From Chloroflexota bacterium (lineage in GTDB: Bacteria > Chloroflexota > Anaerolineae > Anaerolineales > Villigracilaceae), in the NCBI GenBank assembly GCA_049324135.1, contig JBMOMO010000146.1:28322-92321 (forward strand): 64,000 bases of DNA, read 5' to 3'. A model generated the notes under the pieces. It was not told the origin of the DNA. It did not search any database and saw nothing but the letters and a program-made list of their open reading frames with translations. A program made the translations under genes and the position numbers. Below, one piece after another: positions 5,227 to 64,000 of the stretch. The stretch's first letter is position 1. Each line of letters opens with the position of its first letter.

Positions 5227-5730
5227 ATGCTGCGCAATTTGATTTCTTTCCCATTACTTGCCCTGGTCGTTATTCTCCAATCGGCGGTTATCAGCCGGAT
5301 AACGTTGCTTGCCGGTTATGCGGATCTTATGCTGATTGTATTGGCGGCCTGGGCGTTACAAGCGGGAGTGAGTACAGCGTGGCAATGGGCGGTTTTGGGC
5401 GCAATGATGGTTTCTTTTGTGTCTGGCATGCCTTGGTTTGTTCCTCTTGTTGGCTACCTGGGTGTTGCGCTGTTGGCCCGCTTGTTGCAGCAACGGGTCT
5501 GGCAGGCGCCTATGCTGGCTATGTTTAGTGTTACGTTTCTAGGATCCTTGTTCATGAATTTCTTTGCTTTGATTGTTCTGCAATTGTCCGGGCGCCCGCT
5601 TCCATTTGGTGATTCGTTTGGCCTGATTGTTCTACCGAGCCTGTTGCTAAATCTCCTGTTTGCAATCCCGGTCTATGTGGTCATGCGTGATCTGGCGCGT
5701 TGGATTTACCCTGTACCGGAGGCGGAGTGA
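5227..5730 (+). CDS. mreD: Rod-shape-determining protein MreD
   Basis: 167-aa polytopic membrane protein that starts 3 nt after the mreC stop. Called from position and topology. Confidence 0.8.
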   Translation: MLRNLISFPLLALVVILQSAVISRITLLAGYADLMLIVLAAWALQAGVSTAWQWAVLGAMMVSFVSGMPWFVPLVGYLGVALLARLLQQRVWQAPMLAMFSVTFLGSLFMNFFALIVLQLSGRPLPFGDSFGLIVLPSLLLNLLFAIPVYVVMRDLARWIYPVPEAE

Positions 5731-46391: not shown

Positions 46392-46451
46392 GTGAGAACC
46401 GATTGTACCATTTCCAGTTGTTTCGACTCGTGTTGTATAATCAGGTTGTTT

Positions 46452-50678: not shown

Positions 50679-51415
50679 AATTTAACATCCTGGTTGTTGA
50701 CGATGAACCTGTTTCACGCAAATCGCTCACTGATATTTTGCGATTGGAGGGTTATAGTGTTGCTTCTGTCCCGAATGGGCAGGCCGCAATCGAACATATC
50801 CGCACGCATCATATCGACTTGATGATCGTTGACCTTCGCATGCCGGGCATGGATGGCTTGGAAGTTGTTCAAGTTGTGAACCAGATTGCTTCCGACACGG
50901 AAGTGATTGTGCTGACCGCTTACGGCTCTACGGAAACAGCCATCCAGGCGTTACGCCTGAGGATACACGACTATCTGTTGAAACCCGCCCCTCCTGCGCA
51001 GATTTTGACCAGCGTCAAAAGAGGGTTGGAGCGTCGCGCGTTGCGCGTGCGCGCAAAAAGCGCGGATTCGGATTCGTCTGATCTGGAAGACATTTTGGAT
51101 TCCGTTTCGCTTCCCGATGGAACAATAGTGGATTTGTCGCGCCGGCAAATCAGGCGTGGAGAAATTTTGGTAAGCCTGACGCCGGCTGAGGGTCGCTTGT
51201 TGCGCGTGTTATTAATCAACGAAGGTAAGGTTTTTGCTCATCGCGACCTGGTGCTGCTTGTCCAGGGGTACGATACGTCACAACGGGAGGCGCCAGAGAT
51301 CCTGCGACCTTTGGTGAGCCGGCTTCGGCATAAATTGGAAGCATTCCCGGCGCTGTCTGAGCAAATTGTCAGTATCAGGGGGACAGGATATGTTTTTGAG
51401 AAGAAACCAGAATGA
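50675..51415 (+). CDS. OmpR/PhoB-type response regulator
   Basis: 246 aa. The ATG overlaps the preceding stop (ATGA), with GGAGG upstream. REC (ILVVDDEP...LMIVDLRMPGMDG) plus a winged-helix domain (...LVSRLRHKL...IRGTGYVF). Confidence 0.9.
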   Translation: MKFNILVVDDEPVSRKSLTDILRLEGYSVASVPNGQAAIEHIRTHHIDLMIVDLRMPGMDGLEVVQVVNQIASDTEVIVLTAYGSTETAIQALRLRIHDYLLKPAPPAQILTSVKRGLERRALRVRAKSADSDSSDLEDILDSVSLPDGTIVDLSRRQIRRGEILVSLTPAEGRLLRVLLINEGKVFAHRDLVLLVQGYDTSQREAPEILRPLVSRLRHKLEAFPALSEQIVSIRGTGYVFEKKPE

Positions 51416-51435: not shown

Positions 51436-52368
51436 TCAGGGTAGGTCGGGGGGAAAATTTGTTGGGGGGCGCAGCCAGCCCAGCCAACCACTTTTTGCGG
51501 GTTTGCGTACAGTGGCAGGTTTGTCGAAATACATTAGAAGTATGCTCAGGCTAAGGATGCCTGCGCCAATCCATTGCGCTTGCGCGAGTTTCTCGTGCAG
51601 CCATGTAATGCTCAAGCCGATGGCAACCAGCAATTCCAATAGTCCCAGGAGCGCTGTTTGCATCCCTCCCAGGTATTTTACGCCTTGAAATAGCGCGAGC
51701 CTTGAAAGAAACGTAACCAGCGTCAATCCGATAATAGGATACCAACTTGCGTTGGAAGGTATTGGGTGGCCTAAAAGGAGGAACACTGGCACAACGACCA
51801 GACTCATGGCTATTAAGGTATATAGCGTGACCGTTGGAGCAGGAACATCATAAAGTACTCGTTGATTGATCGGCAGGTGAAGCGCATACAGGATCGATGC
51901 AAGTAGCATTTGTCCAACTCCAACCATATCAATGGTAACTGATTCTGAATAGGTCAACAGGAAGACGGCAATCATTGCAAGTGCAATGCGAAAAAGGGTT
52001 AACTTGTTAGGAGGTTGTGAGTCTAATACCAGCCAAATAGCCACAAAAAGGGGATATAGGGAGTAGAGCAATTGTCCAAGGCTGGCATTGATGCGGCCTA
52101 AAGCCGAATAATATAATATAGAACCAATTCCGTTGAATAATCCTGCCAATCCGCACCCAATCAACCCCGCCGGGTAGATGTAAAGATATTTTCGCCGAAA
52201 TACAACTACGATAATCAGTAACAGGAGCGTGGCCATCAATGTTCGGATGCCAACCACTGCAAGAGGTGAAAACCCCAGGTTGATTGCTTGTTTGCCAAAA
52301 ACAGGCGTGAAACCAAGAAAGGTTGCAGATAACAAGACAGCCCGAATCCCCGCTTTCCGTTTTTGCAT
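51436..52368 (-). CDS. EamA/DMT-family transporter
   Basis: 310 aa from the ATG at 52368. Ten TM segments in two repeats. Lies 10 nt downstream of the ThrC-REC gene. Confidence 0.85.
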   Translation of the reverse strand: MQKRKAGIRAVLLSATFLGFTPVFGKQAINLGFSPLAVVGIRTLMATLLLLIIVVVFRRKYLYIYPAGLIGCGLAGLFNGIGSILYYSALGRINASLGQLLYSLYPLFVAIWLVLDSQPPNKLTLFRIALAMIAVFLLTYSESVTIDMVGVGQMLLASILYALHLPINQRVLYDVPAPTVTLYTLIAMSLVVVPVFLLLGHPIPSNASWYPIIGLTLVTFLSRLALFQGVKYLGGMQTALLGLLELLVAIGLSITWLHEKLAQAQWIGAGILSLSILLMYFDKPATVRKPAKSGWLGWLRPPTNFPPDLP

Positions 52369-52378
52369 GGGGTTGACC

Positions 52379-54049
52379 TTAATCCAGTAACGAACGGACT
52401 TCATCAAGAAATTCATCGTTGAGAAAGTCTCCTTTTTGCATCAACGATTGAATTTGTCCTTCCAATCGATTTTTTTCATCGGGTGTCAGTTCTTTGGCAG
52501 AAGCAACGATTACTGGAATGTTTGCCGTTTCGGGGTTGCGTTTCAGGATGTCAATGACTGTAAAGCCATCCATTTCCGGCATGATGAGATCAAGGATAAT
52601 CAGGTCTGGTTTTTCTTTCTCAATGAGAGCCAGAGCCGTTTTGCCGTTTTCGGCTTCGAAGATTGTGAAATCACCTTGCGATTGTAATATCCTCCTGATC
52701 AGGCGGCGCGCATCGGCGCTGTCATCTGCGATTGCGATGCGCGGGAATCTTTCTGGGGCCACGCGGTTTAACGCAGCAAGTAGGCCATCTTGTTGAGGAA
52801 TCTCGCCGCGACTCGGCATTTCTACATCCAGCGACCAATCTTCTCCGAGCAACCATTGTTCGGCTGGCATGGTATGGCCGGTGCAGTTGATAACCACAGT
52901 ATCTGAGGGTTTGATGACGCCATTGCGCACCAATTTGAACAATCCTGCAAAAGCGACCCCTGCGGCCGGTTCTACAGAGAGACCCTCCATCTTTGCGACC
53001 ACATGCATTGCCCGGAACGCTTCCCCGTCACTGACGCTTTCGAATATTCCCTGTGTTTCATCGACTTCTCGCTTCAGCAATTTGTAGGTTCGGCCTGGGT
53101 CGCCAGTCGCAAGCGTCTCAATATGAGTTTGGGGTGTAGTAATCACAATTGGGGTTTCCAGGCCTCGTTGCCAACTTGTGACCATTGGCGCGCATCCTTC
53201 CGCCTGGATGGCGGCAATGGCAGGTAAACCATTGACGTAGCCCATTTTTGTGAGTTCACGAAATCCTTTAGAGACTCCTAATGGCCCCATACCGCCGCTG
53301 ACAGATTGAATATACCAATCGGGTGTACGCCATTTGGGTGACTGTTTACTTCTCTTCGATGGGCGTCCAAGTTTTTGGGTAAGTTGTTCCGCCACTTCGT
53401 AGGCAATCGTTTTCATTGCTTCTACAGAGGTGATTGTCCTTGCTCCCATATCATGGTACAAACCGCGCTGGCGAGCAAACTCGGAAGCCATTTGTTTGGT
53501 TTGATCATAGGAGCCGGTTACTTTTACAACCTGGCTTCCATATAAGGCAATTTCGCGCATTTTTACAGCAGGCACCAGGCTGGTTACAAAAGCCCAGAGC
53601 TTTATCCCTGCGCGCGCGGCGTATGCAGAGTACGAGATTGCCACATTCCCGGTGGACGCAGCAACCAATTCCGTGATACCCGCCTCTTTGAGCGCTGCAA
53701 TGGTGACAGCCGCTTGGCGGTCTTTGAATGACGCTGTAGGGCCTTGTCGTTCGTCCTTGATAAATAAATTCGGGCATCCGAGCATCATGCCCAAGTTCAC
53801 TGCCTGGATAAGGGGTGTGCCGCCCTCCCCCAGGCTTATATTGGCATTGGGGTTGCGGACTGGCAGTAACTCGTGGTACCTCCAAAGATCGAATGTGCGT
53901 TCATGCAATTGTGCATTCCAGGTCTTCGATACTGAATCCAAATCGTATTCCGCAACTCTCCATTGACTGTTGCATTTGGGGCAACTTGCGGTTGTTGGAT
54001 GGAATGGCGCTGCATGATTGCAGTCCAAACAGCGTATTTGAAATGTCAC
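52379..54049 (-). CDS. Threonine-synthase-like PLP enzyme fused to a C-terminal response-regulator receiver domain
   Basis: GTG at 54049 with AGGAGG 7 nt upstream, 556 aa. Cys4 ribbon CLDC...CPKC, PLP-lysine motif TASFKDRQAA, and SVSGGMGP. REC follows: RIAIADDSADARRL...PDLIILDLIMPEMDGFTV...IPVIVASAK. Confidence 0.85.
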   Translation of the reverse strand: MTFQIRCLDCNHAAPFHPTTASCPKCNSQWRVAEYDLDSVSKTWNAQLHERTFDLWRYHELLPVRNPNANISLGEGGTPLIQAVNLGMMLGCPNLFIKDERQGPTASFKDRQAAVTIAALKEAGITELVAASTGNVAISYSAYAARAGIKLWAFVTSLVPAVKMREIALYGSQVVKVTGSYDQTKQMASEFARQRGLYHDMGARTITSVEAMKTIAYEVAEQLTQKLGRPSKRSKQSPKWRTPDWYIQSVSGGMGPLGVSKGFRELTKMGYVNGLPAIAAIQAEGCAPMVTSWQRGLETPIVITTPQTHIETLATGDPGRTYKLLKREVDETQGIFESVSDGEAFRAMHVVAKMEGLSVEPAAGVAFAGLFKLVRNGVIKPSDTVVINCTGHTMPAEQWLLGEDWSLDVEMPSRGEIPQQDGLLAALNRVAPERFPRIAIADDSADARRLIRRILQSQGDFTIFEAENGKTALALIEKEKPDLIILDLIMPEMDGFTVIDILKRNPETANIPVIVASAKELTPDEKNRLEGQIQSLMQKGDFLNDEFLDEVRSLLD

Positions 54050-54089
54050 GTTGCGGCCTCCTGGCAACAAACATGTTCCTGATAATTTT

Positions 54090-57000
54090 TTAGTTGTCTA
54101 TGCGTTTGAGCGCATTTTCAATTGTTGCAATGAGTTCCTGCTCTTGCAAAGAACTTTTTTGTAACAACTTCTGCCCGAACATGTGAAGTTGGTCGCGCTG
54201 CTCGCCTGTCAAGTCGCTGCTACTTACCACAACAACAGGGATATTCCTCAGTTCGTTGCTTTCATGCAATTTCTCAAGAAGTGAGAATCCATCTACATCT
54301 GGCATGAACAGATCCATGACAATGGCATGTGGCGTCTTTATTTGAATTGCAGTCCACCCTGCCTGCCCGCCTTCTGCCAGGATAGGTTTGTATCTTCCTT
54401 GGTTCGAGATCATCGTTCCAAGCAGGCGCAGATCATTCGGGTCATCGTCTATGATCAATACTTCTCGAATACTTCCATCGTTATTTAGACGATCAAGCGA
54501 AGATAGTAAATCATCTTCTACAACCGGCTTGACAAGGTAATCTGCTGCGCCCAGGCTGAATCCCTTTTCTTCTTCTTCCAGAATGCTGCAAATGATTATC
54601 GGGATACCGCGCGTTTCGGGGTTGGATTTCAGGTCCTCAAGAACGCGCCAGCCGTCATACCCTGGCATCATGATATCCAGGATGACCGCAAAAGGTTTTA
54701 ATAGCCTTACTCGTTCTTTTGCTCGCGCGGGGTCATTTAGACTGATTACTTGGAAACCTTTTGGCCGCAGATATCGTTCATACAGACTGAGGATTTGCGG
54801 ATCGTCGTCGATAGTCAGGATTGTCTTGAGGCCGCTTGTTGAAATCTTTTGTTCTTTCATAAATATAGGGACAGTAAAATAGAATGAACTTCCCTTTCCT
54901 GGCATACTATGAACACCAATGCGGCCATGATGCATTTGGACCAGGTGATGGCAAATTGATAATCCAAGGCCAGAACCGCCGACTTTACGAGTTAGGGATG
55001 CATCAACTTGTGAGAAGGGCTGGAACAGTTTGGCTTGGTCTTCAGGAGAAATGCCCGGTCCGGTGTCGGTAACAGTGACGATCACAGAAGATTGCCCGGT
55101 TGTAGCCAGGTCGTCCACCTCAGCCCTTACAGTGATTTCTCCCTTTTCTGTAAATTTGGCCGCGTTAGAAAGCAGGTTGATCACTACCTGCCTGATGCGC
55201 ATTGGATCGGCGCGGACTGTTGGGAGGTCGGCTGCAACCTCTTGTTTCAAGGTGATTTGTTTGTCCTTGATCAGGCCTGCGGCAGTGGACATCACGCTTG
55301 TAATCAGGTCATTGATGTTTACTTCGCTGAACGAAAGTTCCATCTTGCCCGCTTCGATACGGGAGAGATCAAGGATGTCATTGATCAGGCCAAGCAAATG
55401 TTGCCCGGCATTGAAAATAGCCGTCAGGTCTTGTTGTTGTAATTCTGTAACAGGGCCGTCAATTCCTTTAAGGATGACTCGTGCAAACCCGATGATCGAA
55501 TTGAGAGGGGTGCGAAGTTCGTGACTCATATTTGCCAGGAATTGACTCTTCAGTCGATCAACCTCCCGCATTTCCTGAACAGCCTGTTGGGCGATATTGT
55601 AAGAACGCGCGTTGTCAATTCCAATGGCGATTTGATCGGCTAACAGTTGTAGAATGGCTACATCATCTTGCGAAAAAGCGTTCACTTCCGTCGATTGAAT
55701 GTCCAGGACGCCGATAATCCGGTTTCCAATGTGCAAGGGGATGGCGGCCTCGGCTCTTGTATCGGGGAGTAAAGGGTTGGGTTTGTGGATGGGATCGAGC
55801 GCTGTGTTGTTGATGACAATTGGATTTCCGGTCTCTGTTGCTTGCCCTACGGTTGATTTAGAGCCGACTGCCAATGAATGTTCTCGCTGTTTCATTTGCT
55901 CGCCAGCCTCGCCGGTGGCTTCCTGCAACACTGCGTTGAAACCGGTCTCTTCGACGATGAAGATGGCAGCGTGGTAGTAACCAAAGCGTTCCTGCACCAG
56001 GTTTACTGCGCGCGAAAAGATGGCTTTCAGGTCCAGGGAAGATGTGACCAGGCGTCCAATCTCGGCCGAGGCGGCCAGGTATTCGTTTCGGCGTCGCAGC
56101 GCTTCTTCGTTTTGCTTGCGCTCCGTGATGTCTGTCTGGACAGCAAGGAAGCCTAAGACCATATCATTATTTCCAATGATTGGACTGTACGTTCCGGTGA
56201 CTGGAACCAAACGGCCATCTTTTGCGCGGTTGATTATTTCCAAAGAATACGTCTTCTTTGCAACCAGCGATTCCCAAAGTTCTTTGTATCGATCTTGCGG
56301 ATATAAGCCGGATTTTAGGACACGGGGCGTTTGACCAATGACTTCGTCTAGCGTATATCCATAGATATTTTCAAATCCCTGGTTGATATATTGAATTTTG
56401 CCTGTTGCGTCTGTTAGAAAAACGGCATTGTTCGTGTTTTCGATGCCCAGTTTGAATTTAGCCAGGTCTTCTTCCGCCCTTTTGCGCTCGGTGATGTCTC
56501 GCGCAACCCAGAAGACGTGATCCTCGGTTAGTTTTGAAACGTTGGCATCGAACCAGTATTCTTTGCCGTTTATTTCCAACGGGTATTCGATTTCTTGGGA
56601 TTGTCCGGTGTCCAGCGTGGTCCGAATGGTTGACAAGAAGGGCGCGTGAAGGTTTTCTGGCAATACTTCTTGCAATGTCCGGCCAAGCAGTTCTTCACTG
56701 GGGCGGAACAGGTAATTTGGGTTTGTTTCTGCAATGCGCTCATACCTGCCTTCGCGGTCATAGATAATAATGACATCTTCCATGGCAGAGAAAAGCGCTT
56801 TTAGTTCGGACTCGGACTGTTGGGTTCGCTGGAAAAGGCGGGCATTTTCAATGGCAAAACCGATTTGCCGTCCAATGGATTGTGTCAGGCCAACCATATT
56901 TTCCGACATTGGCTCAGGGTTCTCGTTGAAAACACATAATGTGCCAACGATTTGCCCTTTTGCTTCCAGGGGGACGCCCAAATATGCAAACAATCCGTTG

Positions 57001-58265
57001 CTCATTAGCCCTGTGAAATCAATCGGCGTTGCTTCCCGCGTGTCAGAAACAGCCAGTGTAGATTGCAATTTGAATACATAGTCGCACGGAGTTCCTGCCA
57101 GTCCTGCGGTTTGCAGTTTTTGTAGAACAGGTAAGGGCAGGTTCTGGTGCGTAAATAATTCCAGTTGCCCTGAGGCTTCATTCTTGAGTGAGATGAGACC
57201 GCAACTGAAACCAAGCATATCCAAGATTTGTGAAAGGAGTGATTCCAAGAGTTGCGTTAATTCCAGCGTTTGACTGGAAGAGAAGATGATTTGGTTGAGG
57301 GCGCTTAATTCCTCAGCCCGGGCTTGTGTCTCTTGGAATAGCCTGGCGTTGTCCAGGGCAACTGCCGCCTGGTTGGATAGAATCATCGCCAGGTTCAATT
57401 CTTGTTGGGAGAACTGTCTTTCCTGGTAAAGTTCCTCGAGGTGGATCATGCCTGTTGCGCGGCCCTGCATGATGAGCGGCAAACGCACTTGCGACTTGAC
57501 GCTAAATTTCCTCATGTAAGCCTGTTCGATGTCATCCAGGCTTTGGTCACTGCTTAACAGGATGACAGGTTGCAAGGTTGCCAGCATTTGTTGCGTGGCC
57601 GGGTAGTCTGCTGGGTCTGTTTCCAGGTTTGTCCATAGTTCGTCTTCGGGGCGTTTTTTGTTTTCTGGTATGTAATCAACAACGGTGCGCATTTTCCCTT
57701 GAGGGGTGAGCAGGAGAATCGAACATTCTGTTACCTGGAAAATTTGTATGAAGTATTTTGCAATCAGGTTCGCAATTTCTTCTAGTTGTAATGGCACCTC
57801 TGCAAGGTTCTGGCTTACGTTGAGTAGTGTTGTCAATTCTTGAACACGCTGTTGTGTTTCCTGGAACAGGCGCGCATTTTCCATTGCGAGGGATAATTGG
57901 TCGGCTACTTGTTTGACCAGTAATTGTTCTTCAGAGCCCCAATCGCTTTTCCCTGTTTCGTCAACAACCTTGAGTGTTGACCAATTCTTTTCGTCCAGGC
58001 GGAAAGCGGTAGAAAGCGTCGTCGTAGGGGCGTCCCGCGAAATAACGGAAGCAAGCCTTTCGTCGGCTTGAAGCGTCATCCCCGTCCCAAATAGAACTTC
58101 GGATATTTCATCCGAAAGACTCATAGGAGTGGACGGGAGGCTGGGCGTCTGTTTGTTCTTTCGACTGCCGCTTCTGTCCGGACGTTCGGCTTGCGTTTCT
58201 GCTTCGTTGTTTTTTATCTCGTCGAAAAGTTTATCGAGCCTGTTGTTTATCTTTTTCTTCGACAT
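54090..58265 (-). CDS. Hybrid sensor histidine kinase (GAF x3-4, PAS x2, GAF, HisKA, HATPase, REC x2)
   Basis: 1391 aa from the ATG at 58265. Repeated ...ENARLFQETQ... GAF ends, PAS pairs ending DITERK, H-box MSHELRTPLNSI, GSGLGLSI, and two REC domains (ILTIDDDP...ILDIMMPGYDG and VLIIDDDP...VMDLFMPDVDG). Confidence 0.9.
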   Translation of the reverse strand: MSKKKINNRLDKLFDEIKNNEAETQAERPDRSGSRKNKQTPSLPSTPMSLSDEISEVLFGTGMTLQADERLASVISRDAPTTTLSTAFRLDEKNWSTLKVVDETGKSDWGSEEQLLVKQVADQLSLAMENARLFQETQQRVQELTTLLNVSQNLAEVPLQLEEIANLIAKYFIQIFQVTECSILLLTPQGKMRTVVDYIPENKKRPEDELWTNLETDPADYPATQQMLATLQPVILLSSDQSLDDIEQAYMRKFSVKSQVRLPLIMQGRATGMIHLEELYQERQFSQQELNLAMILSNQAAVALDNARLFQETQARAEELSALNQIIFSSSQTLELTQLLESLLSQILDMLGFSCGLISLKNEASGQLELFTHQNLPLPVLQKLQTAGLAGTPCDYVFKLQSTLAVSDTREATPIDFTGLMSNGLFAYLGVPLEAKGQIVGTLCVFNENPEPMSENMVGLTQSIGRQIGFAIENARLFQRTQQSESELKALFSAMEDVIIIYDREGRYERIAETNPNYLFRPSEELLGRTLQEVLPENLHAPFLSTIRTTLDTGQSQEIEYPLEINGKEYWFDANVSKLTEDHVFWVARDITERKRAEEDLAKFKLGIENTNNAVFLTDATGKIQYINQGFENIYGYTLDEVIGQTPRVLKSGLYPQDRYKELWESLVAKKTYSLEIINRAKDGRLVPVTGTYSPIIGNNDMVLGFLAVQTDITERKQNEEALRRRNEYLAASAEIGRLVTSSLDLKAIFSRAVNLVQERFGYYHAAIFIVEETGFNAVLQEATGEAGEQMKQREHSLAVGSKSTVGQATETGNPIVINNTALDPIHKPNPLLPDTRAEAAIPLHIGNRIIGVLDIQSTEVNAFSQDDVAILQLLADQIAIGIDNARSYNIAQQAVQEMREVDRLKSQFLANMSHELRTPLNSIIGFARVILKGIDGPVTELQQQDLTAIFNAGQHLLGLINDILDLSRIEAGKMELSFSEVNINDLITSVMSTAAGLIKDKQITLKQEVAADLPTVRADPMRIRQVVINLLSNAAKFTEKGEITVRAEVDDLATTGQSSVIVTVTDTGPGISPEDQAKLFQPFSQVDASLTRKVGGSGLGLSICHHLVQMHHGRIGVHSMPGKGSSFYFTVPIFMKEQKISTSGLKTILTIDDDPQILSLYERYLRPKGFQVISLNDPARAKERVRLLKPFAVILDIMMPGYDGWRVLEDLKSNPETRGIPIIICSILEEEEKGFSLGAADYLVKPVVEDDLLSSLDRLNNDGSIREVLIIDDDPNDLRLLGTMISNQGRYKPILAEGGQAGWTAIQIKTPHAIVMDLFMPDVDGFSLLEKLHESNELRNIPVVVVSSSDLTGEQRDQLHMFGQKLLQKSSLQEQELIATIENALKRIDN

Positions 58266-59019
58266 ATTCCAGTAACTCCTGGGCAAGGACACGATATTGT
58301 TGTGAGCCGCGACTGTTGGGTTTGTAGTGTGTAATTGGTTGGCCGGCAATCGGGCTTTCCCGAAGTTTTGTGTCAATCTCGATGACTGTTTCGAACAGGC
58401 CTTTGCCAAATGTGTTTTGTAGTTGTTCTTGGATGTTGCGGTGCGTGCGGTTCCTGCGATCCAGCATGGTGATGAGGATGCGGTAGGCGAGGTCGGGGTT
58501 GCTTTCCTGTCGTATCCGGCGGATCATTCCCATCATATTGCGCAAGGCGTAGGCAGAGAAGAATTCGGCCTGTGTTGGGATAACCAGTAAATTTGCTGCG
58601 CTTAAGGCATTTTGCGTAATGGCTCCCAGGAAGGGTGGACAGTCGAGCAGGATGAACTGGTATGATAGGGGGGAGGCCGCTTCCAGGGCGCGCTTTAGGA
58701 TAGCCGTGTAGTTGTTGCGGATGGGGAGGTATTGTTCTGCGCTGTCAATGTTGGAATGCGCCGGGATCAGGTCGATGTCTTCGATTTCTGTCTTTTGGAC
58801 AGCGCTCAACAGGGAGGCCCCTTCTATCAATATGTTGCTGGACGAAACCGGAGCCTGGTTGATTTCCAATCCAGCGGCCAACGTTAAATTCGCCTGGGGG
58901 TCCAAATCAATCAACAATACTCTTTGTCCGGTTTCAGCCAGGGCGGCGCCAAGAGACAAGGTGGTGGTGGTTTTTGCCACTCCGCCTTTTTCGTTCGAGA
59001 TTGCAATTATGTAAGCCAT
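58231..59019 (-). CDS. ParA/MinD-family ATPase (orphan; no ParB gene seen nearby)
   Basis: 262 aa. Deviant Walker A SNEKGGVAKTTT and LIDLDPQANLT. Its 3' end overlaps the proposed kinase start by 35 nt. Confidence 0.9.
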   Translation of the reverse strand: MAYIIAISNEKGGVAKTTTTLSLGAALAETGQRVLLIDLDPQANLTLAAGLEINQAPVSSSNILIEGASLLSAVQKTEIEDIDLIPAHSNIDSAEQYLPIRNNYTAILKRALEAASPLSYQFILLDCPPFLGAITQNALSAANLLVIPTQAEFFSAYALRNMMGMIRRIRQESNPDLAYRILITMLDRRNRTHRNIQEQLQNTFGKGLFETVIEIDTKLRESPIAGQPITHYKPNSRGSQQYRVLAQELLEYVEEKDKQQAR

Positions 59020-59044
59020 ATCTTACTCTCCATACCTGGTTATC

Positions 59045-61087
59045 TCAGTTTGGGTCGTTATTATTTTCAGTTGGCCCCTGCTTTAGCAGGGTGTGGGGTA
59101 ATAGTTGTACCTGGGTAGCGCCAAGCGCCGTTTTGAGTTCGTCGAGGGCTATTCGAATCATGTCGTCTGGATCGCTGGCGCTTCGGATTTTTGTCGTTAT
59201 ATCGGAAACAAGGCGTTCTCGTTCTGCGCGACGCGCGGTCTCTTCAAAGAGACGCGCGTTCTCTGCTGAAATCGCTACGCGATCAGCAATTGCTTTGATT
59301 AGATTCAGCTGATCTGCGCTTGGTTCTGTTGTCAAAGGCAAGTGGACATCCAGTGTACCAATGTGCTCTCCGCGGATCTCTATGGGTATGGAGACCAGGC
59401 GAGTTTGCTCATCTGTTGCGGATAGTCCTTTAACCCGCTCGATCATTTGCCAGTCGCTTGGTTTTTCGACCTGGCTAACCCCTTCGGCTGTGTATATGAT
59501 CCCCGCCAGTTTTTGTTCTTTTGGTAGTCTGTTCCAGGCTTGTCGGATGTATTGCCGGTAAACTGTCTCGGCTTCGTCCAGGGATTTCCGCGCCTGGTCA
59601 AACAGGCGCGCATTTTCGATTGCAAGGCTTACCTGATCTGCCAGGAGGGAGAGTGCGCGGACATCCTCTTCCCCAAAAGCGGTTGGCTCGGTGCTTTGTA
59701 CATCTAAGGCGCCAACGATAGATTTGCCAATCCTCAATGGCAGCGCTATTTCTGAGCGGGTTTGCGGCAGGTCGGGGTTTTCGAAAAATACTGCATCTTC
59801 ACCAACATCCAGCGCAATGCGCGGGTTGCCTGATCCGGTCGTGTAACCAACAATGCCCTGTTCACCGATCTTTAGCCTGTGTCCGCGCTCAAGCATGTGT
59901 TGACCGCCTTCACTGTTTGCCGCCCTGAGGAGGGCATATTCCTTTCTGTCGTCGCTCAGGAATATGCCAACGTGATAATAGCCGAACTCCTGACTGATCA
60001 GTTGAGTAATTTTTGGCAACAGTTCGTCCAAGGAGCGGATGGATGAGATTGCGCTGCTCACTAAAGTGATGGCCTCGAACTGTTTTGCACGCCGGTTGCT
60101 TTCTTTGTTTGCTGACGCCAAATCGCGGGTGCGTTCCTGTACTCTCTGTTCCAGGCTAGTTAGCGTTTCTTGTAATTGCCTGGACATGTTGTTGAGTGTA
60201 GCGGCAAGGGAAGATATCTCGTCGTTGCCGCCAATCGAAATAATAGCGCGCTTGTCCAGGTAGCCATCTTCCATGGCTTGCGCGGCGCTTTGCACAACTT
60301 GTAACCTTTTGCTGATAGAGCGAGCAATGGAATAAGAGAGGAATAATCCAAATATAATTGCCAGCAAGAGCGCCAGTATCATTCGTACAATGACATCTTG
60401 GTAGGCAACCTCGATCATTTCATTTAGCACACTGGAAAAATCGTTGTTAATTTCAATTAATTGCTCAATCGAAGTCCGCGCTGACGCAAGCGCTGAGAGT
60501 GCATCTTGATTTGCTTCTATGTCCAGTTCGCCTGTTTCTAACGTAGCAACCATCGCGTTAAATGACGATGAATAGGTCGCGTATTCACTTGTAAACCGGT
60601 TAAAGCTCGCCAATTCCGAAGCCTGTAAGGCGTTGACTTTTTGTTCTATCTCAAGTTGTTTTGTCTGGCGCAAGCCAGCCGTAAATTCTAAGGGCACAGG
60701 GGATAGCCAGACGGCCGCATACGTGTCAATGATTGGTTTTATTTGTTCTTCCGCAGCGCGAATTGTTTGAATGTGATGGGTGCGTTCGGCTGGAAGGAGG
60801 TTTTCATTTTGTAGCGCAATCAGGGCGGTTTGGATATCGGCTATTGCAGCATTTACTTGACTGGTCTTGATGAGGGGCAGTAATACCACTTCGTAGTTTT
60901 TGTTTTGTTGGGTTCCTACTGAAGTTAAACCGCGCAGCGCGGCCAGGAAGACGCCTATCGTACCTAGCACCATTACAAAGATCAATGCATTGAGTTTCCA
61001 ATTGACCTTAATGTTTGCAAAGAGGTCTTCATGGAAATCTTCGGGCGCTTGTATCGTGCGTATTTTGGGGAGGTCTTGTGCGGTCAT
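59045..61087 (-). CDS. Membrane sensor: helical ectodomain-TM-HAMP-GAF-GAF-like, with no recognisable output domain
   Basis: 680 aa. Two TM segments flank a ~190-aa helical domain. HAMP (...SKRLQVVQSAAQAMEDGYLD...ISSLAATLNNMSRQL). GAF with FGYYHVGIFL...GALDVQSTEPTAFGEEDV...ENARLF. Confidence 0.85.
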   Translation of the reverse strand: MTAQDLPKIRTIQAPEDFHEDLFANIKVNWKLNALIFVMVLGTIGVFLAALRGLTSVGTQQNKNYEVVLLPLIKTSQVNAAIADIQTALIALQNENLLPAERTHHIQTIRAAEEQIKPIIDTYAAVWLSPVPLEFTAGLRQTKQLEIEQKVNALQASELASFNRFTSEYATYSSSFNAMVATLETGELDIEANQDALSALASARTSIEQLIEINNDFSSVLNEMIEVAYQDVIVRMILALLLAIIFGLFLSYSIARSISKRLQVVQSAAQAMEDGYLDKRAIISIGGNDEISSLAATLNNMSRQLQETLTSLEQRVQERTRDLASANKESNRRAKQFEAITLVSSAISSIRSLDELLPKITQLISQEFGYYHVGIFLSDDRKEYALLRAANSEGGQHMLERGHRLKIGEQGIVGYTTGSGNPRIALDVGEDAVFFENPDLPQTRSEIALPLRIGKSIVGALDVQSTEPTAFGEEDVRALSLLADQVSLAIENARLFDQARKSLDEAETVYRQYIRQAWNRLPKEQKLAGIIYTAEGVSQVEKPSDWQMIERVKGLSATDEQTRLVSIPIEIRGEHIGTLDVHLPLTTEPSADQLNLIKAIADRVAISAENARLFEETARRAERERLVSDITTKIRSASDPDDMIRIALDELKTALGATQVQLLPHTLLKQGPTENNNDPN

Positions 61088-61090
61088 GCG

Positions 61091-63574
61091 TTACCCGTCG
61101 GTTTCTTTTGGTTTCAGGCGAATTGATACTTTGGAGCCAGGGATAGCGCGTCCCAATTCTTCAGCAGCAGTGCGCAGAATGTTTCTAACATTAATGGATT
61201 CGCCAATTTTCGAGGTTATCTCGCCTATCGTTCTTTCGCGTGTAGCGTGGCGGCGAGCTTCGTCTAACAAATAAGCGCTTTCCAGTGCTAACGCGGCGCG
61301 TTCGGCGGCGGCTTGCGTCAGGACTAACTCGTCGTCCGTCCACTTTCGCTTTGTTTGATTTGGCCGGATTTCGAGGATTCCCATGGTCTGCCCGCGCAGC
61401 ACAAGCGGGATGCTCAATTTATCATCATTGTTGTCTGTGAGTGATGGGGTAGCAGGCGCGTCAAGTGGTAGGATTTTTCCATTCTTGTATAGGTAGCCAG
61501 TTTTTCTGGTTTGGAGGGCAAATTGAGACCAGGTTTGACCAAAATATTTTTGATATGTTTCTTCTGCCTTTGCCAGCGCCCGCTGCGTTTCTGCAAATGA
61601 GCGTGAGTTTTCAATGGCAACTGCCACTTGATCGGCCAGGGTGGAGATTACCGCAATATCTTCCTGTGAGAAAGCGTTTTTTTCTGTGCTTTGAACGTCC
61701 AGTACGCCAATCAATTGCTGGCCAACTTTGAGAGGCAAGGCCATTTCTGAGCACGTTTCTGGGAGGTCTGGGTTGTTAAAGAATACTGCGTCCGCGCCGG
61801 TGTCAAGGGCTATACGAGCGGATTGGGTGCTGGCTACAAAGCCAACAATGCTGTTGGGTTCAACGGCCAATTTGTGTTGGCGCGCCAACATTTTTTGACC
61901 TCCTTCGCTATTGGCGGCTACCAGCACAGCGTTTTGCCCGCTTGATTCCAGCAGGAAAATGCCGGCATGGTAAAAACCAAATTGCTCAGAGATCTCGCGG
62001 GTGATATCGGACAGGAGCAGGTCCAGGTCGCGGATGGACGCGGCGGCGCGTGCAACTTCTGAGACCGCCTGGAGTTGATTTGCCCGTTTTTGTAGCGCAG
62101 ACGTGCGTTCCTGTACCCGTTCTTCGAGTGAGAAGATCAAGTCGCTTAATCTTGCCGACATGCTGTCCAGGGTCTCGGCCAGGGTCGTGATCTCGTCTTT
62201 CACCTTTGTGGCAATGCTGGCTTTGGCTGCCAGGTTTCCGGCCGCAATTTCGGATGCTGTTTGTGTTAACTTGGTTAGCGGGGAGGTGAGGAGATTGCTG
62301 GCGCCCCAAGAGACAAGTGTTGCAATCCCTATAACGATGCCCAGTACAATGAAGACAAAAATAATCGTGGTGGTGGTTTCGCGTTCCAGCGTTTGGACAG
62401 CAGTAAGAAATGGCTGGCGCAGTTCACTGACCGGTACAATGATGCCCAGGCTGTAGTTGATGTTTGGGATTGGGCGGTAGGCAACATATTTTTCAATCCC
62501 ATTCACTTGGACAATTTGCAGGCCTCGTTGCCCTCCGGTCATCTTGACTACAATTTTGAACATTTCAAGCGGTACTTTATCTGGCAAGGTATATTGGACG
62601 ATTTCGCCGTCCGGGATGTCTGCGGGAATGCCAAAATCGGCATATCCTTCTTTTGGCATTGAGATCACGTGACCTTCTTTGTCAACCAGGAAGGCGTACC
62701 CTGTATCGCCTGTCCGAATGGAAGACACTGCCTGGGTTATGCTCGTCATAAGCACGTCCGCAGCGACTACCCCTCGAAATTTGTCGGATTCGTCATAAAT
62801 AGGAGCGCTGCTGGTAATTACCAGGCCGTGTAACGCCGCGTCCTGGTATGGGACGGACCATACGGTCTCCCGGTCTGGGTTCGAGGCGGGCGAGGCCGCC
62901 AAGAACCAGGGTCTTTGGGTAACGTCGAAATCAACCGGCACAATGTTGGCCAGGTCTATGTTAGGGTAATATAAAGTTTCCTTCTCTTTTCCGCCAAAAT
63001 ACAATGCGATAATATTTGGATTTTCCTTCAATATGATAGGCGCAATCGTATCCAACTGTTTGAGCGCATTGATCTCACTCGCCAGTTTTTCAGTCAATAC
63101 TACTTTGGTTGGGAGGAAGATCGAGCCGGTCTCCTGGTTGGGATTATCCAAACTCCCGCCAGGGAGATAAAACAAGGTTTCGCTTGCGTTCCATAAGACC
63201 CCGGAAACATAGATGCCATCAGCCACTTCGATTTCCTTCTCGATATAAGTCTCTGTGGCAATGCGCGCTGTTTCCAGGTTCTTTTCAGTAGTATCGAAAA
63301 AAGAATTTAATGCTGACGCTCCTTCGGCTAGCGCAGCATCCAAACGGTTTTCAGTTTCCTGTTGCACGCTTTTGTCTAATTGCTCTGTCAGCAAATTGTT
63401 TAGCGCTTGGGTGCGATTAAGCAGGTAGTACCCAACAAAGACGATTGCCGCAATCGTGACAAACAGGTTGGCAACGATCAATTTTGTACGCAGGGAGACA
63501 AAATTGGAACGAGGCGTCTTTTGTTGGGCGGTCTGATTTTCTGGAAGCGTGTCTGTCATACGAACTCGTTTCAA
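61091..63574 (-). CDS. Membrane sensor: Cache-like ectodomain-TM-HAMP-GAF-GAF-like, with no recognisable output domain
   Basis: 827 aa. ~340-aa periplasmic/extracellular domain (...PYQDAALHGLVITSSAPIYDE...GYAFLVDKEGHVISMP...). HAMP domain. GAF with FGFYHAGIFL...GVLDVQSTEKNAFSQEDI...ENSRSF. A paralog of 59045..61087. Confidence 0.85.
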   Translation of the reverse strand: MKRVRMTDTLPENQTAQQKTPRSNFVSLRTKLIVANLFVTIAAIVFVGYYLLNRTQALNNLLTEQLDKSVQQETENRLDAALAEGASALNSFFDTTEKNLETARIATETYIEKEIEVADGIYVSGVLWNASETLFYLPGGSLDNPNQETGSIFLPTKVVLTEKLASEINALKQLDTIAPIILKENPNIIALYFGGKEKETLYYPNIDLANIVPVDFDVTQRPWFLAASPASNPDRETVWSVPYQDAALHGLVITSSAPIYDESDKFRGVVAADVLMTSITQAVSSIRTGDTGYAFLVDKEGHVISMPKEGYADFGIPADIPDGEIVQYTLPDKVPLEMFKIVVKMTGGQRGLQIVQVNGIEKYVAYRPIPNINYSLGIIVPVSELRQPFLTAVQTLERETTTTIIFVFIVLGIVIGIATLVSWGASNLLTSPLTKLTQTASEIAAGNLAAKASIATKVKDEITTLAETLDSMSARLSDLIFSLEERVQERTSALQKRANQLQAVSEVARAAASIRDLDLLLSDITREISEQFGFYHAGIFLLESSGQNAVLVAANSEGGQKMLARQHKLAVEPNSIVGFVASTQSARIALDTGADAVFFNNPDLPETCSEMALPLKVGQQLIGVLDVQSTEKNAFSQEDIAVISTLADQVAVAIENSRSFAETQRALAKAEETYQKYFGQTWSQFALQTRKTGYLYKNGKILPLDAPATPSLTDNNDDKLSIPLVLRGQTMGILEIRPNQTKRKWTDDELVLTQAAAERAALALESAYLLDEARRHATRERTIGEITSKIGESINVRNILRTAAEELGRAIPGSKVSIRLKPKETDG

Positions 63575-63580
63575 TTGGAC

Positions 63581-64000
63581 TTAAAGCGCCTGGCTTTCAG
63601 GTTGATCGTGAGCGTCTTCTGAAAGGATACTCACGCTCACTTCGCAATCCGTCAATAAAGCGCCCAGGCTTTCGGCGGTAGCCTGTAGGATGGCGTCCAC
63701 TTCCGGTTCAGCCCCAATGCGGCTGGAAACATTGGCAATGGCGCGTTCCAGTTCGGCGCGGCGCTGGGTGTCCTGGTGCAATCGCGCGCTTTCCAGCGCG
63801 GCGCCAATTTGGTTGACCAACCTGTTCGCATCAGCAATCTCATCATGCGACCAGTCTTGCATTTCAGGCGGCTTCACTAAGCGCACAATGCCGATTGTCT
63901 GGTTGCGCACTTGAATTGGCGCAGCCAGCGTTTTTCGGTCCTCGCTCAAGATGGGTTCGCCTTCCTTGTTGGCTCGGATCGCCTCCGGCTGTTGCAATGT
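63581..64000 (-). CDS. 3' part of a third GAF-module sensor paralog (continues past the right edge)
   Basis: ...LAAPIQVRNQTIGIVRLVKPPEMQDWSHDEIADANRLVNQIGAALESARLHQDTQRRAELERAIANVSSRIG... aligns with the C-terminal modules of the two downstream paralogs. The tracked TTG start at 63997 is probably internal. Confidence 0.75.
   Translation of the reverse strand, partial: TLQQPEAIRANKEGEPILSEDRKTLAAPIQVRNQTIGIVRLVKPPEMQDWSHDEIADANRLVNQIGAALESARLHQDTQRRAELERAIANVSSRIGAEPEVDAILQATAESLGALLTDCEVSVSILSEDAHDQPESQAL

What the first reader, a model, noticed from the sequence alone, without database searches (positions are those of the whole stretch)
51436..64000. Seven-gene minus-strand signalling operon: three output-less HAMP/GAF sensors, ParA, a giant hybrid kinase, ThrC-REC and an exporter
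- Gene order on the minus strand: GAF sensor (partial) | Cache-HAMP-GAF | helical-HAMP-GAF | ParA-like ATPase | hybrid HK | ThrC-REC | EamA.
- Junctions are very tight: gaps of 6, 3, 25, 40 and 10 nt, and one 35-nt overlap.
- Such spacing implies co-transcription.
- There is no DNA-binding response regulator in the operon. The only effector-like products are an enzyme and a transporter.
- Membrane sensors, a positioning-type ATPase and a kinase recall chemosensory-array logic, but there is no MCP signalling domain and no CheA or CheW.
Basis: inference. Interest (0 to 1): 0.65.

Follow-up and report, generated by a model that had tools for sequence, protein, structure and literature searches.

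The report
Conserved sensor–ParA–kinase–enzyme signalling operon
This is the downstream half of a long, tightly packed signalling gene cluster kept across at least 60 uncultured Anaerolineales genomes, in which several membrane sensors without an output domain, a ParA positioning ATPase and one large kinase appear to control a threonine-synthase-like enzyme and an exporter rather than a transcription factor.

Summary
All seven minus-strand genes, their domains and the junctions (gaps of 6, 3, 25, 40 and 10 nt, and a 35-nt ParA/kinase overlap) are as described. No output domain was found in the sensors.

Gene order is conserved: 60 of 61 related Anaerolineales loci with enough flank have ParA upstream, and the ParA/kinase overlap is 32 or 35 nt in 57 of 57.

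The window cuts the cluster. In relatives it has about 13 genes:
- two single-domain receivers;
- a soluble 3×GAF protein;
- five membrane HAMP-GAF receptors;
- ParA, a hybrid kinase, ThrC-like–REC and EamA.

New points:
- Every receptor ends in the same GAF-type C-terminal module.
- One GAF subtype is shared by the receptors and the kinase-proximal GAF.
- The kinase starts with a conserved basic peptide (MSKKKxxxKRLDKLF), the usual mark of a ParA partner.
- The ThrC-like domain keeps its PLP lysine but lacks the motif shared by four solved threonine synthases.
- One variant locus fuses a GAF protein to the kinase and lacks ParA, the sensors and the peptide.
- An OmpR-type regulator with two kinases lies convergently next door in 39 of 47 loci.

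Co-transcription and all protein contacts remain inferred. I rate it a new variant of two-component signalling, not described in the literature I could search.

The parts
63581..64000 (-). 3' end of a further sensor gene, cut by the window end. It encodes only the shared C-terminal GAF-type module.
   Evidence: Pfam GAF model positions 90-133 match residues 23-68. The orthologue L001 3526-5439 is a 637-aa HAMP-GAF protein with a near-identical C-terminus.
61091..63574 (-). Membrane receptor: dCache_1, TM, HAMP, GAF, degenerate GAF and a short tail. No catalytic output domain.
   Evidence: Pfam dCache_1 6e-26, HAMP and GAF (2 stretches). Two hydrophobic segments at residues 26-53 and 398-429. 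The C-terminal module is shared with the other sensors.
59045..61087 (-). Membrane receptor: four-helix-bundle-like periplasmic domain, TM, HAMP, GAF, degenerate GAF and a short tail. No catalytic output domain.
   Evidence: Pfam HAMP, GAF (2 stretches) and a weak 4HB_MCP_1 match. Partial NCBIfam matches to the TM2-HAMP region of NarQ/NarX. Hydrophobic segments at residues 30-57 and 224-259.
58231..59019 (-). ParA/Soj-type P-loop ATPase whose clade-specific Walker A motif is KGGVAKT.
   Evidence: Pfam AAA_31 7e-48. The nearest solved structures are ParA/Soj, E 1e-43 to 1e-36. KGGVAKT is present in 120 of 120 homologue clusters and 65 of 65 loci. Homologues at 76-97% identity come from Anaerolineales.
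58215..58265 (-). First 17 codons of the kinase (MSKKKINNRLDKLFDEI): a conserved basic N-terminal peptide, candidate ParA-interacting peptide. It lies inside the overlap with the 3' end of the ParA gene.
   Evidence: The peptide is conserved in 58 loci and is followed by a variable Pro/Lys-rich linker. Net charge of the first 13 residues is +4. ParA partners generally use a positively charged, disordered N-terminus (PMC10241942). The interaction itself was not tested.
54090..58265 (-). Soluble hybrid histidine kinase (1391 aa): basic peptide, linker, GAF fragment, 2 GAF, 2 PAS, GAF, HisKA, HATPase_c, REC, REC. No HPt domain.
   Evidence: Pfam. H-box HELRTP at residue 915 and no hydrophobic segment. 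The kinase-proximal GAF is 40-54% identical to sensor GAF1 and to GAF2 of the 3×GAF protein.
52379..54049 (-). Fusion of a Zn-ribbon, a threonine-synthase-like PLP enzyme and a C-terminal receiver domain.
   Evidence: Pfam PALP 1e-63 and Response_reg 3e-20. It scores below every NCBIfam thrC cut-off; the best is 260 bits against a cut-off of 303. The PLP lysine, four Zn-ribbon cysteines and REC residues DD, D, S and K are invariant in 9 orthologues. The NSxNPxRxEGQKT motif of solved threonine synthases is replaced by GARTITSVEAMKT.
51436..52368 (-). EamA/DMT-family membrane transporter, the last gene of the operon.
   Evidence: Pfam EamA 3e-30 with 2 stretches. Multiple hydrophobic segments. 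It follows ThrC-REC in 47 of 47 loci with room.
50675..51415 (+). OmpR-type DNA-binding response regulator, convergent with EamA (20 nt between the two stop codons). It is a neighbour and not part of the operon.
   Evidence: Pfam Response_reg and Trans_reg_C. Present in this position in 39 of 47 loci.
49095..50678 (+). REC-GAF-HisKA-HATPase kinase, upstream of the OmpR gene in the convergent unit.
   Evidence: Pfam. Conserved in 39 of 47 loci.
45420..49082 (+). Large GAF histidine kinase, first gene of the convergent three-gene unit. Its start codon is uncertain.
   Evidence: Pfam GAF, HisKA and HATPase_c. Conserved in 39 of 47 loci. Its GAF is only 28-30% identical to the operon's shared GAF subtype.

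Best explanation
The region is the 3' half of a conserved Anaerolineales signalling cluster that works as a many-receptors-to-one-kinase phosphorelay. Its end point is an enzyme and an exporter, not a transcription factor.

**Proposed pathway**
1. Five membrane receptors and one soluble 3×GAF protein carry different input domains (dCache, four-helix bundle, MASE11 or none). All share the same cytoplasmic part: HAMP, one GAF subtype, a degenerate GAF and a short tail. They have no catalytic output.
2. They most likely act by binding the single soluble hybrid kinase. The kinase carries the same GAF subtype next to its phospho-accepting helix, and a matching GAF fragment at its N-terminus.
3. The kinase phosphorylates receiver domains: its own two, the two single-domain receivers at the head of the cluster, and the receiver fused to the ThrC-like PLP enzyme.
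4. Phosphorylation switches the PLP enzyme. The enzyme probably does not use O-phosphohomoserine. Its amino-acid-like product or substrate is moved by the co-translated EamA transporter.
5. The ParA ATPase gene overlaps the kinase gene. ParA binds the kinase's basic N-terminal peptide and places or partitions the kinase-receptor complex in the cell.

**Shown**
- Gene content, domains, spacing and conservation.
- The shared module and the shared GAF subtype.
- The conserved peptide.
- The altered ThrC motif.

**Inferred**
- Co-transcription.
- Every protein-protein contact.
- Phosphotransfer routes.
- The enzyme's reaction and the transported compound.
For: **Conservation and packing**
- The order sensors, ParA, kinase, ThrC-REC, EamA holds in 60 of 61 loci with at least 6.5 kb upstream.
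- The ParA/kinase overlap is 32 nt in 52 loci and 35 nt in 5, that is 57 of 57.
- EamA follows ThrC-REC in 47 of 47 loci.
- The cluster head (REC, REC, 3×GAF, then the sensors) is conserved in about 20 metagenome loci.

**Convergence of the receptors on the kinase**
- 157 of 177 ORFs upstream of ParA end in the same module, with a median of 6 residues left to the C-terminus.
- The same module matches residues 80-188 of the kinase.
- Sensor GAF1, GAF2 of the 3×GAF protein and the kinase-proximal GAF are 40-55% identical. Other GAFs score 21-33%.
- In the variant locus L070 a 3×GAF-like protein is fused to the kinase core. The identities are 42% over 563 aa and 58% over 669 aa. Separate sensors, ParA and the N-terminal peptide are all absent from that locus.

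**ParA partner**
- The peptide M[SP]KKKxxxKRLDKLF is conserved in 58 loci and is followed by a variable linker.
- ParA partners are usually encoded beside the ATPase and use a positively charged N-terminus (PMC10241942).
- The position aligned with Arg189 of B. subtilis Soj is an arginine here; I recall that residue as DNA-binding (alignments).

**Output**
- All 120 closest clusters carry PALP + REC at 72-97% identity.
- The receiver's active-site residues and the PLP lysine are invariant.

**Expression**
- Low-depth metatranscriptome contigs cover all genes of the Ca. Villigracilis locus L058.
Against: - No RNA read or contig was shown to span a gene junction. Promoters of this phylum are not covered by the scan.
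- No interaction was tested. No multimer prediction was available.
- The 'module' is not a distinct domain. Its profile hits 54,716 representatives, led by giant multi-GAF proteins. The model matches only GAF ends and GAF-to-GAF connectors, with no Foldseek E-value at or below 0.001.
- The hybrid kinase has no HPt domain, so routes to separate receivers are uncertain.
- Flanking housekeeping genes are syntenic too.
- The fusion evidence rests on one locus.
- The ThrC-like protein could still be the organism's threonine synthase. I could not check these genomes for another thrC.
Confidence: 0.4

Rival explanations
1. This is ordinary neighbourhood with no single system. A lineage rich in two-component genes keeps a syntenic block in which unrelated signalling genes, the chromosomal Soj/ParA, a housekeeping threonine synthase with an added regulatory receiver, and a transporter happen to lie together.
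For: - Flanking housekeeping genes are conserved in order as well: M28 peptidase in 33 of 47 loci, plus HflX and polyprenyl synthase.
- One ParA homologue is labelled Soj by its source.
- ParA is closest to solved Soj/ParA proteins.
- The ThrC-like domain's best matches are threonine synthases.
Against: - The ParA/kinase overlap is constant in 57 of 57 loci, and gaps of 3-40 nt run through the cluster.
- No ParB gene is adjacent.
- All receptors share the same C-terminal module and GAF subtype with the kinase.
- In L070, ParA, the sensors and the kinase's peptide are lost together.
- The ThrC-like protein scores below every equivalog cut-off and has an altered motif.
Confidence: 0.2
2. ParA is the output, not a positioning device. 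The receptors and the kinase regulate ParA's ATPase cycle through the kinase's N-terminal peptide. In this way environmental signals would control nucleoid segregation or septum placement in these filamentous bacteria. ThrC-REC and EamA would be a side branch.
For: - ParA sits between the receptors and the kinase and is translationally coupled to the kinase.
- The basic peptide is conserved.
- From my own knowledge, ParA/MinD relatives such as MipZ and PomZ control division-site placement. One search gives the general ParA/MinD roles.
Against: - No division or segregation gene lies in the cluster.
- ThrC-REC is the most conserved protein of the cluster, at 68-94% identity. EamA stands at 49-93%, mostly 55-60%, and ParA at 59-93%.
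- L070 keeps kinase, ThrC-REC and EamA without ParA. The kinase-to-enzyme branch is therefore the invariant core.
Confidence: 0.15
3. The GAF-only proteins are small-molecule or second-messenger binding proteins that act on their own, as buffers, scaffolds or partners of proteins encoded elsewhere. They do not signal to the adjacent kinase.
For: - From my own knowledge, GAF domains commonly bind cyclic nucleotides, haem or other ligands; solved examples appear among the fold matches.
- Multi-GAF proteins without any other domain are abundant in this lineage.
Against: - Five of the six have TM-HAMP transmitter modules, which by established knowledge relay signals to a downstream cytoplasmic domain.
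- The GAF subtype is shared specifically with the kinase-proximal GAF.
- A 3×GAF-like protein is fused to the kinase in L070.
Confidence: 0.1

Closest known systems
Chemosensory arrays positioned by ParA-like ATPases (Vibrio ParC/ParP, Rhodobacter sphaeroides PpfA/TlpT)
   Same: - Several paralogous receptors with different input domains, a HAMP domain and a common cytoplasmic module.
- One kinase.
- Single-domain receivers.
- A ParA-type ATPase gene inside the signalling cluster.
- A partner with a basic N-terminus.

   Different: - No MCP signalling domain, CheA, CheW, CheB or CheR.
- The common module is GAF-based.
- The kinase is a HisKA-type hybrid kinase.
- The output is an enzyme plus a transporter, not a motor.
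NarX/NarQ-type sensor kinases (periplasmic four-helix bundle, TM, HAMP, signalling helix, GAF-like domain, kinase core)
   Same: [quoted passage not shown] NCBIfam gives partial matches to the TM2-HAMP region of NarQ/NarX.
   Different: The DHp and catalytic domains are missing. The proteins end after a second degenerate GAF and a short tail.
Kinases regulated by separate sensor proteins (for example RetS/LadS acting on GacS in Pseudomonas; recalled, not tested here)
   Same: This is a known precedent for the signalling proposed here, in which one signalling protein binds and modulates a separate kinase.
   Different: RetS and LadS are themselves kinase-like proteins. The partners here have no kinase core and are encoded in a battery directly upstream of the kinase.
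Threonine synthase, class with short N-terminus (solved: 2zsj, 2d1f, 1uim, 6cgq) and NCBIfam PRK08197
   Same: - Fold-type II PLP domain.
- The SFKDR lysine and the ASTGN loop are kept.
- E-values of 1e-38 to 1e-34 to solved enzymes.
- The best NCBIfam model covers the Zn-ribbon and the catalytic domain.
   Different: - It scores below all equivalog cut-offs.
- The NSxNPxRxEGQKT motif of all four solved enzymes is replaced by GARTITSVEAMKT. The GNAGN loop is replaced by SGGMGP.
- It carries a C-terminal receiver domain.
- From memory, the replaced residues bind the substrate phosphate in the Thermus enzyme. I could not confirm this in the paper library.
Response regulators with enzymatic output domains (CheB, PleD, RpfG and the like)
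   Same: An intact receiver domain (DD, D, S/T and K) is fused to an enzyme.
   Different: - The enzyme is a PLP-dependent ThrC-family protein and the receiver is C-terminal.
- My five literature searches on the fusion and the cluster found no description of such a fusion.

Membership tests
Two-component hybrid histidine kinase | HisKA dimerisation domain with the phospho-accepting histidine, an HATPase_c catalytic domain, and a fused receiver with the phospho-accepting aspartate. | tested here: met
   Pfam HisKA 2e-20, HATPase_c 3e-30 and Response_reg in 2 stretches. HELRTP at residue 915. Both receivers show DD, D, S and K by reading the sequence.
Two-component hybrid histidine kinase | An HPt domain or protein that carries phosphate from the fused receiver to a terminal regulator. 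| tested here: not met
   No Hpt match in any protein of the window region or of the upstream part in L084.
Chemosensory (Che) system | Receptors with an MCP signalling domain, a CheA kinase and a CheW adaptor. | tested here: not met
   Pfam finds none of these in the seven window proteins or in the upstream genes of L084. The precomputed Pfam lists of L001 and L003 show none either.
ParA/MinD ATPase family | Deviant Walker A motif with the signature lysine (KGGxxK[ST]). | tested here: met
   KGGVAKT at residues 12-18, invariant in 120 clusters and 65 loci. Pfam AAA_31/CbiA.
ParA/MinD ATPase family | A cognate partner protein whose charged N-terminal peptide binds the ATPase dimer and stimulates it. 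| tested here: inconclusive
   A conserved basic peptide sits at the N-terminus of the kinase, which is encoded directly downstream and overlaps ParA. Binding and stimulation could not be tested.
ParABS chromosome or plasmid partition system | An adjacent ParB gene (and a parS site). | tested here: not met
   No ParB-like domain is found in any neighbouring gene in the window, L001, L003 or L084. parS was not searched for.
Threonine synthase (EC 4.2.3.1) | A score above the curated equivalog cut-off of an NCBIfam thrC model. | tested here: not met
   - PRK08197: 260.1 bits against a cut-off of 303.
- TIGR00260: 142.9 against 167.1.
- All other thrC models fall further below their cut-offs.
Threonine synthase (EC 4.2.3.1) | The PLP-binding lysine in the SFKDR motif. 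| tested here: met
   The lysine is aligned with the same motif of four solved enzymes. It is invariant in 9 orthologues.
Threonine synthase (EC 4.2.3.1) | The motif NSxNPxRxEGQKT shared by the solved bacterial enzymes. I recall it as the substrate-phosphate site. | tested here: not met
   It is replaced by GARTITSVEAMKT in ungapped alignment with 2zsj, 2d1f, 1uim and 6cgq. The replacement is conserved in orthologues.
Threonine synthase (EC 4.2.3.1) | Catalytic conversion of O-phosphohomoserine to threonine. | not testable with these tools
   This needs an enzyme assay or complementation of a thrC mutant.
NarX/NarQ-like sensor kinase | A kinase core (DHp and catalytic domain) after the HAMP and GAF-like parts. 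| tested here: not met
   No HisKA or HATPase_c match in either full-length sensor.
EamA / drug-metabolite transporter family | Two EamA repeats in a polytopic membrane protein. | tested here: met
   PF00892 3e-30 with 2 stretches. Multiple hydrophobic segments. The score for TIGR00950 is well below its cut-off, so the substrate class is open.
Operon (single transcription unit) | One RNA spanning the gene junctions. | tested here: inconclusive
   No RNA runs exist for the window. Short low-depth metatranscriptome contigs cover all genes of L058, but none of those listed spans a junction.

The most novel reading that the evidence does not exclude
Anaerolineales may have built a receptor array analogous to a chemosensory array from different parts. 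GAF modules would replace the MCP, CheW and CheA contacts. The orphan GAF start at each receptor's C-terminus might pair with the orphan GAF end at the kinase's N-terminus, or with the shared GAF subtype. A ParA ATPase would place the array through the kinase's N-terminal peptide. The array's output would be the regulated synthesis and export of an amino-acid-like compound that serves as a signal between cells of the filament or biofilm. The cluster's own dCache receptor, which has a partial amino-acid-binding motif, might sense that compound in turn.
Probability: 0.1. Interest if true: 0.85.

Novelty: new variant of a known kind. Interest (0 to 1): 0.55.

Why it matters
Anaerolineales are abundant in activated sludge, sediments and biofilms, and most have never been cultured. 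Little is known about how they sense their surroundings.

**What the cluster combines**
- It is among the best conserved signalling loci of the order. Its ThrC-REC protein is 68-94% identical across 80 species-level genomes.
- It joins three things not described together before:
  - a battery of receptors that have lost, or never had, a kinase core;
  - a ParA ATPase translationally coupled to a histidine kinase;
  - a response regulator whose output is a PLP enzyme paired with an exporter.

**What it would add if the proposed mechanism holds**
- A new cargo class, a two-component kinase complex, for ParA/MinD positioning ATPases.
- A new enzymatic output for receiver domains.
- A natural case in which receptor and kinase functions are split between polypeptides, and re-fused in one lineage.

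**What is directly testable**
- The kinase's N-terminal peptide.
- The altered ThrC active site.

Tried and rejected
**Searches and predictions that gave nothing useful**
- AlphaFold2 on the cytoplasmic 350 residues of the 4HB sensor without an alignment gave pLDDT 53.5, too low for a fold search.
- The 140-residue module with a three-sequence alignment gave pLDDT 75.7. Its fold matches were only GAF ends and GAF-to-next-domain connectors at E-values of 0.013 or worse.
- No RNA run holds the window, which comes from a biofilm metagenome.
- Metatranscriptome contigs for the Ca. Villigracilis locus are 165-555 nt long at depth 2-10. They show expression only, not operon continuity.
- Six literature searches were run. 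Five, on the fusion and the ParA-GAF-kinase cluster, found nothing relevant. The sixth, on the threonine synthase phosphate-site residues, found no supporting paper. The one hit that mentioned ParA-like domains, GAF and Chloroflexi concerns unrelated conflict systems.

**Ideas considered and rejected**
- I rejected the idea that the sensors' C-terminal module is a new output domain. Its profile hits 54,716 representatives, and the best are 1,000-4,000-residue proteins made of tandem GAF domains. It is the end of one GAF plus the connector and the start of another.
- The Walker A change of Gly to Ala could mean an inactive ParA. I recall that P1 ParA has Ser at this position, so I treat the change only as a clade signature.
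- Pairwise identities among the six receiver domains are 22-42% and do not single out a cognate pair.
- The window is not a mobile element or a defence system. The rest of it holds ordinary housekeeping genes.

Full report
**1. What is in the window**

ORF listing and translation show seven co-oriented minus-strand genes from 64000 down to 51436.
- 6 nt between the partial sensor and the Cache sensor;
- 3 nt between the Cache sensor and the 4HB sensor;
- 25 nt between the 4HB sensor and ParA;
- a 35-nt overlap between ParA and the kinase;
- 40 nt between the kinase and ThrC-REC;
- 10 nt between ThrC-REC and EamA.

Pfam and NCBIfam confirm the domain calls:
- dCache_1-HAMP-GAF;
- a weak 4HB match plus HAMP-GAF;
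- a ParA/Soj-type ATPase;
- a 1391-residue soluble hybrid kinase with 3 GAF, 2 PAS, HisKA, HATPase_c and 2 REC;
- a PALP + REC fusion with an N-terminal zinc ribbon;
- an EamA transporter.

Each full-length sensor has two hydrophobic segments. The kinase, ParA and the enzyme have none. Consensus promoter-like sites are not enriched, and no terminator-like site lies in a junction. That scan says little for this phylum.

**2. Where it comes from and how far it is conserved**

The window is near-identical to contigs of one biofilm metagenome run. ParA homologues at 76-97% identity and ThrC-REC homologues at 72-97% identity fill the top 120 clusters of two protein searches. Where named, they are from Anaerolineales, and every ThrC-REC hit carries PALP + REC.

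A scan of one genome per species found 585 or more relatives. The best 80 are full-length at 68-94% identity and come from Anaerolineales or Villigracilaceae MAGs. I used tblastn of the window proteins against these loci and measured the distances:
- ParA lies upstream on the same strand in 60 of 61 loci with at least 6.5 kb of flank.
- The ParA stop and the kinase start overlap by 32 nt in 52 loci and by 35 nt in 5.
- The kinase-to-ThrC gap has a median of 22 nt.
- The ThrC-to-EamA gap has a median of 35.5 nt.
- EamA follows in 47 of 47 loci.

One caution applies. The M28 peptidase, HflX and the upstream polyprenyl synthase are often syntenic too. Order alone is therefore weaker evidence than the constant overlap and the tight packing.

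**3. The window cuts the cluster**

In relatives, the 10 kb upstream of ParA is filled with further GAF genes. I followed the first of these into metagenome contigs and annotated L084. The full order is:
1. polyprenyl synthase;
2. single-domain receiver REC-A;
3. single-domain receiver REC-B;
4. a soluble 3×GAF protein;
5. HAMP-GAF;
6. MASE11-GAF;
7. HAMP-GAF;
8. dCache-HAMP-GAF;
9. 4HB-HAMP-GAF;
10. ParA, followed by the rest.

The gaps and overlaps are again tiny. This head is conserved in about 20 loci. The unit therefore has about 13 genes, of which the window shows the last six and a fragment of a seventh.

**4. A DNA-binding regulator is next door**

Twenty nucleotides beyond the EamA stop codon, a convergent unit ends. 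It encodes a large GAF kinase, a REC-GAF kinase and an OmpR-type regulator. The unit is in this position in 39 of 47 loci and missing in 8. It is a frequent companion but is separable from the operon.

**5. The sensors have no hidden output domain**

Of 177 ORFs upstream of ParA in the related loci, 157 end with the same sequence of about 110 residues. Its consensus is vPIkLRGqvIG.L...W..DE....AvAeRlaLAlENARLfeEtqrRAerEr.iseIT.KIrss.dp..mLqTAveELgraLggseV, and it stops a median of 6 residues before the C-terminus.

A profile of this sequence hits 54,716 representative proteins. The best hits are giant proteins made of up to 21 tandem GAF domains.

A model of the module has pLDDT 83-92 in its core. 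It consists of a beta hairpin, a 45-residue helix and a second helix. Its fold matches are GAF ends and the GAF-to-next-domain connectors of phytochromes and PDE6. None has an E-value at or below 0.001.

The module is therefore the end of a degenerate second GAF, the connector helix and the first helix-helix-strand of a further GAF that is not there. The description 'output-less' stands.

**6. Links between the sensors and the kinase**

- The same module profile matches residues 80-188 of the kinase. There a lone hairpin-helix follows a disordered linker and precedes a complete GAF.
- The HAMP-proximal GAF of the sensors, GAF2 of the 3×GAF protein and the GAF next to the kinase's HisKA domain form one subtype at 40-55% identity over about 155 residues. 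The kinase's other GAFs and those of the neighbouring kinases are at 21-33%.
- One locus, L070, lacks ParA and all separate sensors. Its kinase begins with a multi-pass membrane domain.
  - That domain is followed by a stretch collinear with the 3×GAF protein (42% identity over 563 residues).
  - Next comes the usual kinase core and two receivers (58% identity over 669 residues).
  - This kinase lacks the basic N-terminal peptide.
  - The two receiver genes, ThrC-REC and EamA are in place.

The L070 pattern is a fusion-type hint that GAF proteins act on the kinase. It also suggests that ParA, the separate sensors and the peptide go together. It is a single case.

**7. ParA**

The protein is a Soj/ParA-type ATPase; its nearest solved structures have E-values of 1e-43 to 1e-36. 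No ParB gene is nearby. Its Walker A motif is KGGVAKT in all 120 clusters and all 65 loci.

The kinase encoded downstream starts with M[SP]KKKxxxKRLDKLFxDI in 58 loci. A variable Pro/Lys-rich linker follows.

According to PMC10241942, ParA/MinD genes usually lie beside their cargo genes, and their partners use a positively charged, disordered N-terminus. On that basis I propose the kinase as ParA's partner and cargo.

**8. The enzyme and the transporter**

The PALP domain aligns with four solved threonine synthases at E-values of 1e-38 to 1e-34. It keeps the SFKDR lysine and the ASTGN loop. Against that:
- It scores below every NCBIfam threonine synthase cut-off; the best is 260 bits against 303.
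- The motif NSxNPxRxEGQKT, present in all four solved enzymes, reads GARTITSVEAMKT here.
- The GNAGN loop reads SGGMGP.
- Both changes are conserved in orthologues.

From memory, the replaced residues bind the substrate phosphate in the Thermus enzyme. I could not confirm this in the paper library. I therefore regard the reaction as open and O-phosphohomoserine as an unlikely substrate.

The receiver has all its active-site residues. EamA-family proteins include amino acid and metabolite exporters (established knowledge). The match to the transporter subfamily model is far below its cut-off, so the cargo is unknown.

ThrC-REC is the most conserved protein of the cluster.

**9. Mechanism, rivals and novelty**

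Mechanism:
- The best-supported reading is a many-receptors-to-one-kinase phosphorelay with an enzymatic and transport output, spatially organised by ParA. Confidence is about 0.4.
- Only anatomy and conservation are shown. All contacts and phosphotransfer routes are inferred.

Rivals:
- mere syntenic neighbourhood (0.2);
- ParA as the regulated output (0.15);
- GAF proteins acting independently of the kinase (0.1).

Novelty:
- The system resembles a ParA-positioned chemosensory array in logic. It fails every membership feature of Che systems.
- Five literature searches found no description of the fusion or the cluster.
- I rate it a new variant of two-component signalling.

Noticed in passing
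L070:5662-10657: This is a variant locus. ParA and all separate sensor genes are absent. The first receiver gene looks frameshifted (5662-5844 and 5765-6037 are in different frames). The kinase carries its own multi-pass membrane domain plus a fused stretch like the 3×GAF protein.
   Followed up: partly
L084:7724-8552: Two single-domain receiver genes lie back to back, 2 nt apart, at the head of the cluster. The second overlaps the start of the 3×GAF gene. They lie outside the window, so the window's operon is incomplete at its 5' end.
   Followed up: partly
window:62600-62950 (dCache domain of the sensor at 61091-63574): The dCache domain reads FDVTQRPWF, then Y 20 residues after the W, then D 30 residues after that Y. 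This is a partial match to the amino-acid-binding motif YxxxxRxWY...Y...D of PMC8915833. Both flanking tyrosines are phenylalanine and the spacing is about 4 residues longer than reported.
   Followed up: partly
L084:2237-4795 (minus strand): A SufB gene is interrupted by an intein, with Hint and LAGLIDADG homing-endonuclease matches. It lies a few kb upstream of the cluster in a close relative.
   Followed up: no
L041 and L079: These contigs are labelled Blastopirellula marina and Lewinellaceae. They carry the same cluster in the same order at 72-73% ThrC-REC identity, so they are probably Anaerolineales contigs placed in the wrong bins.
   Followed up: no
window:45039-46562 (minus) versus 45420-49082 (plus): A 507-aa minus-strand ORF overlaps the 5' part of the large GAF kinase ORF. 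The true start of the kinase, and whether the antisense ORF is real, were not resolved.
   Followed up: no
window:52379-54049 and 54090-58265: The receiver of ThrC-REC and the second receiver of the kinase both have an unusual stretch around the conserved lysine. It reads LTxExxxxL...QKG/S in place of the usual K-P.
   Followed up: no
window:16752-16822 (plus strand): The only Rfam match in the window at gathering score is a tRNA gene. The rest of the window encodes ordinary housekeeping functions: an ABC sugar transporter, glucose-6-phosphate and 6-phosphogluconate dehydrogenases, a GH15 glycosidase and HflX.
   Followed up: partly
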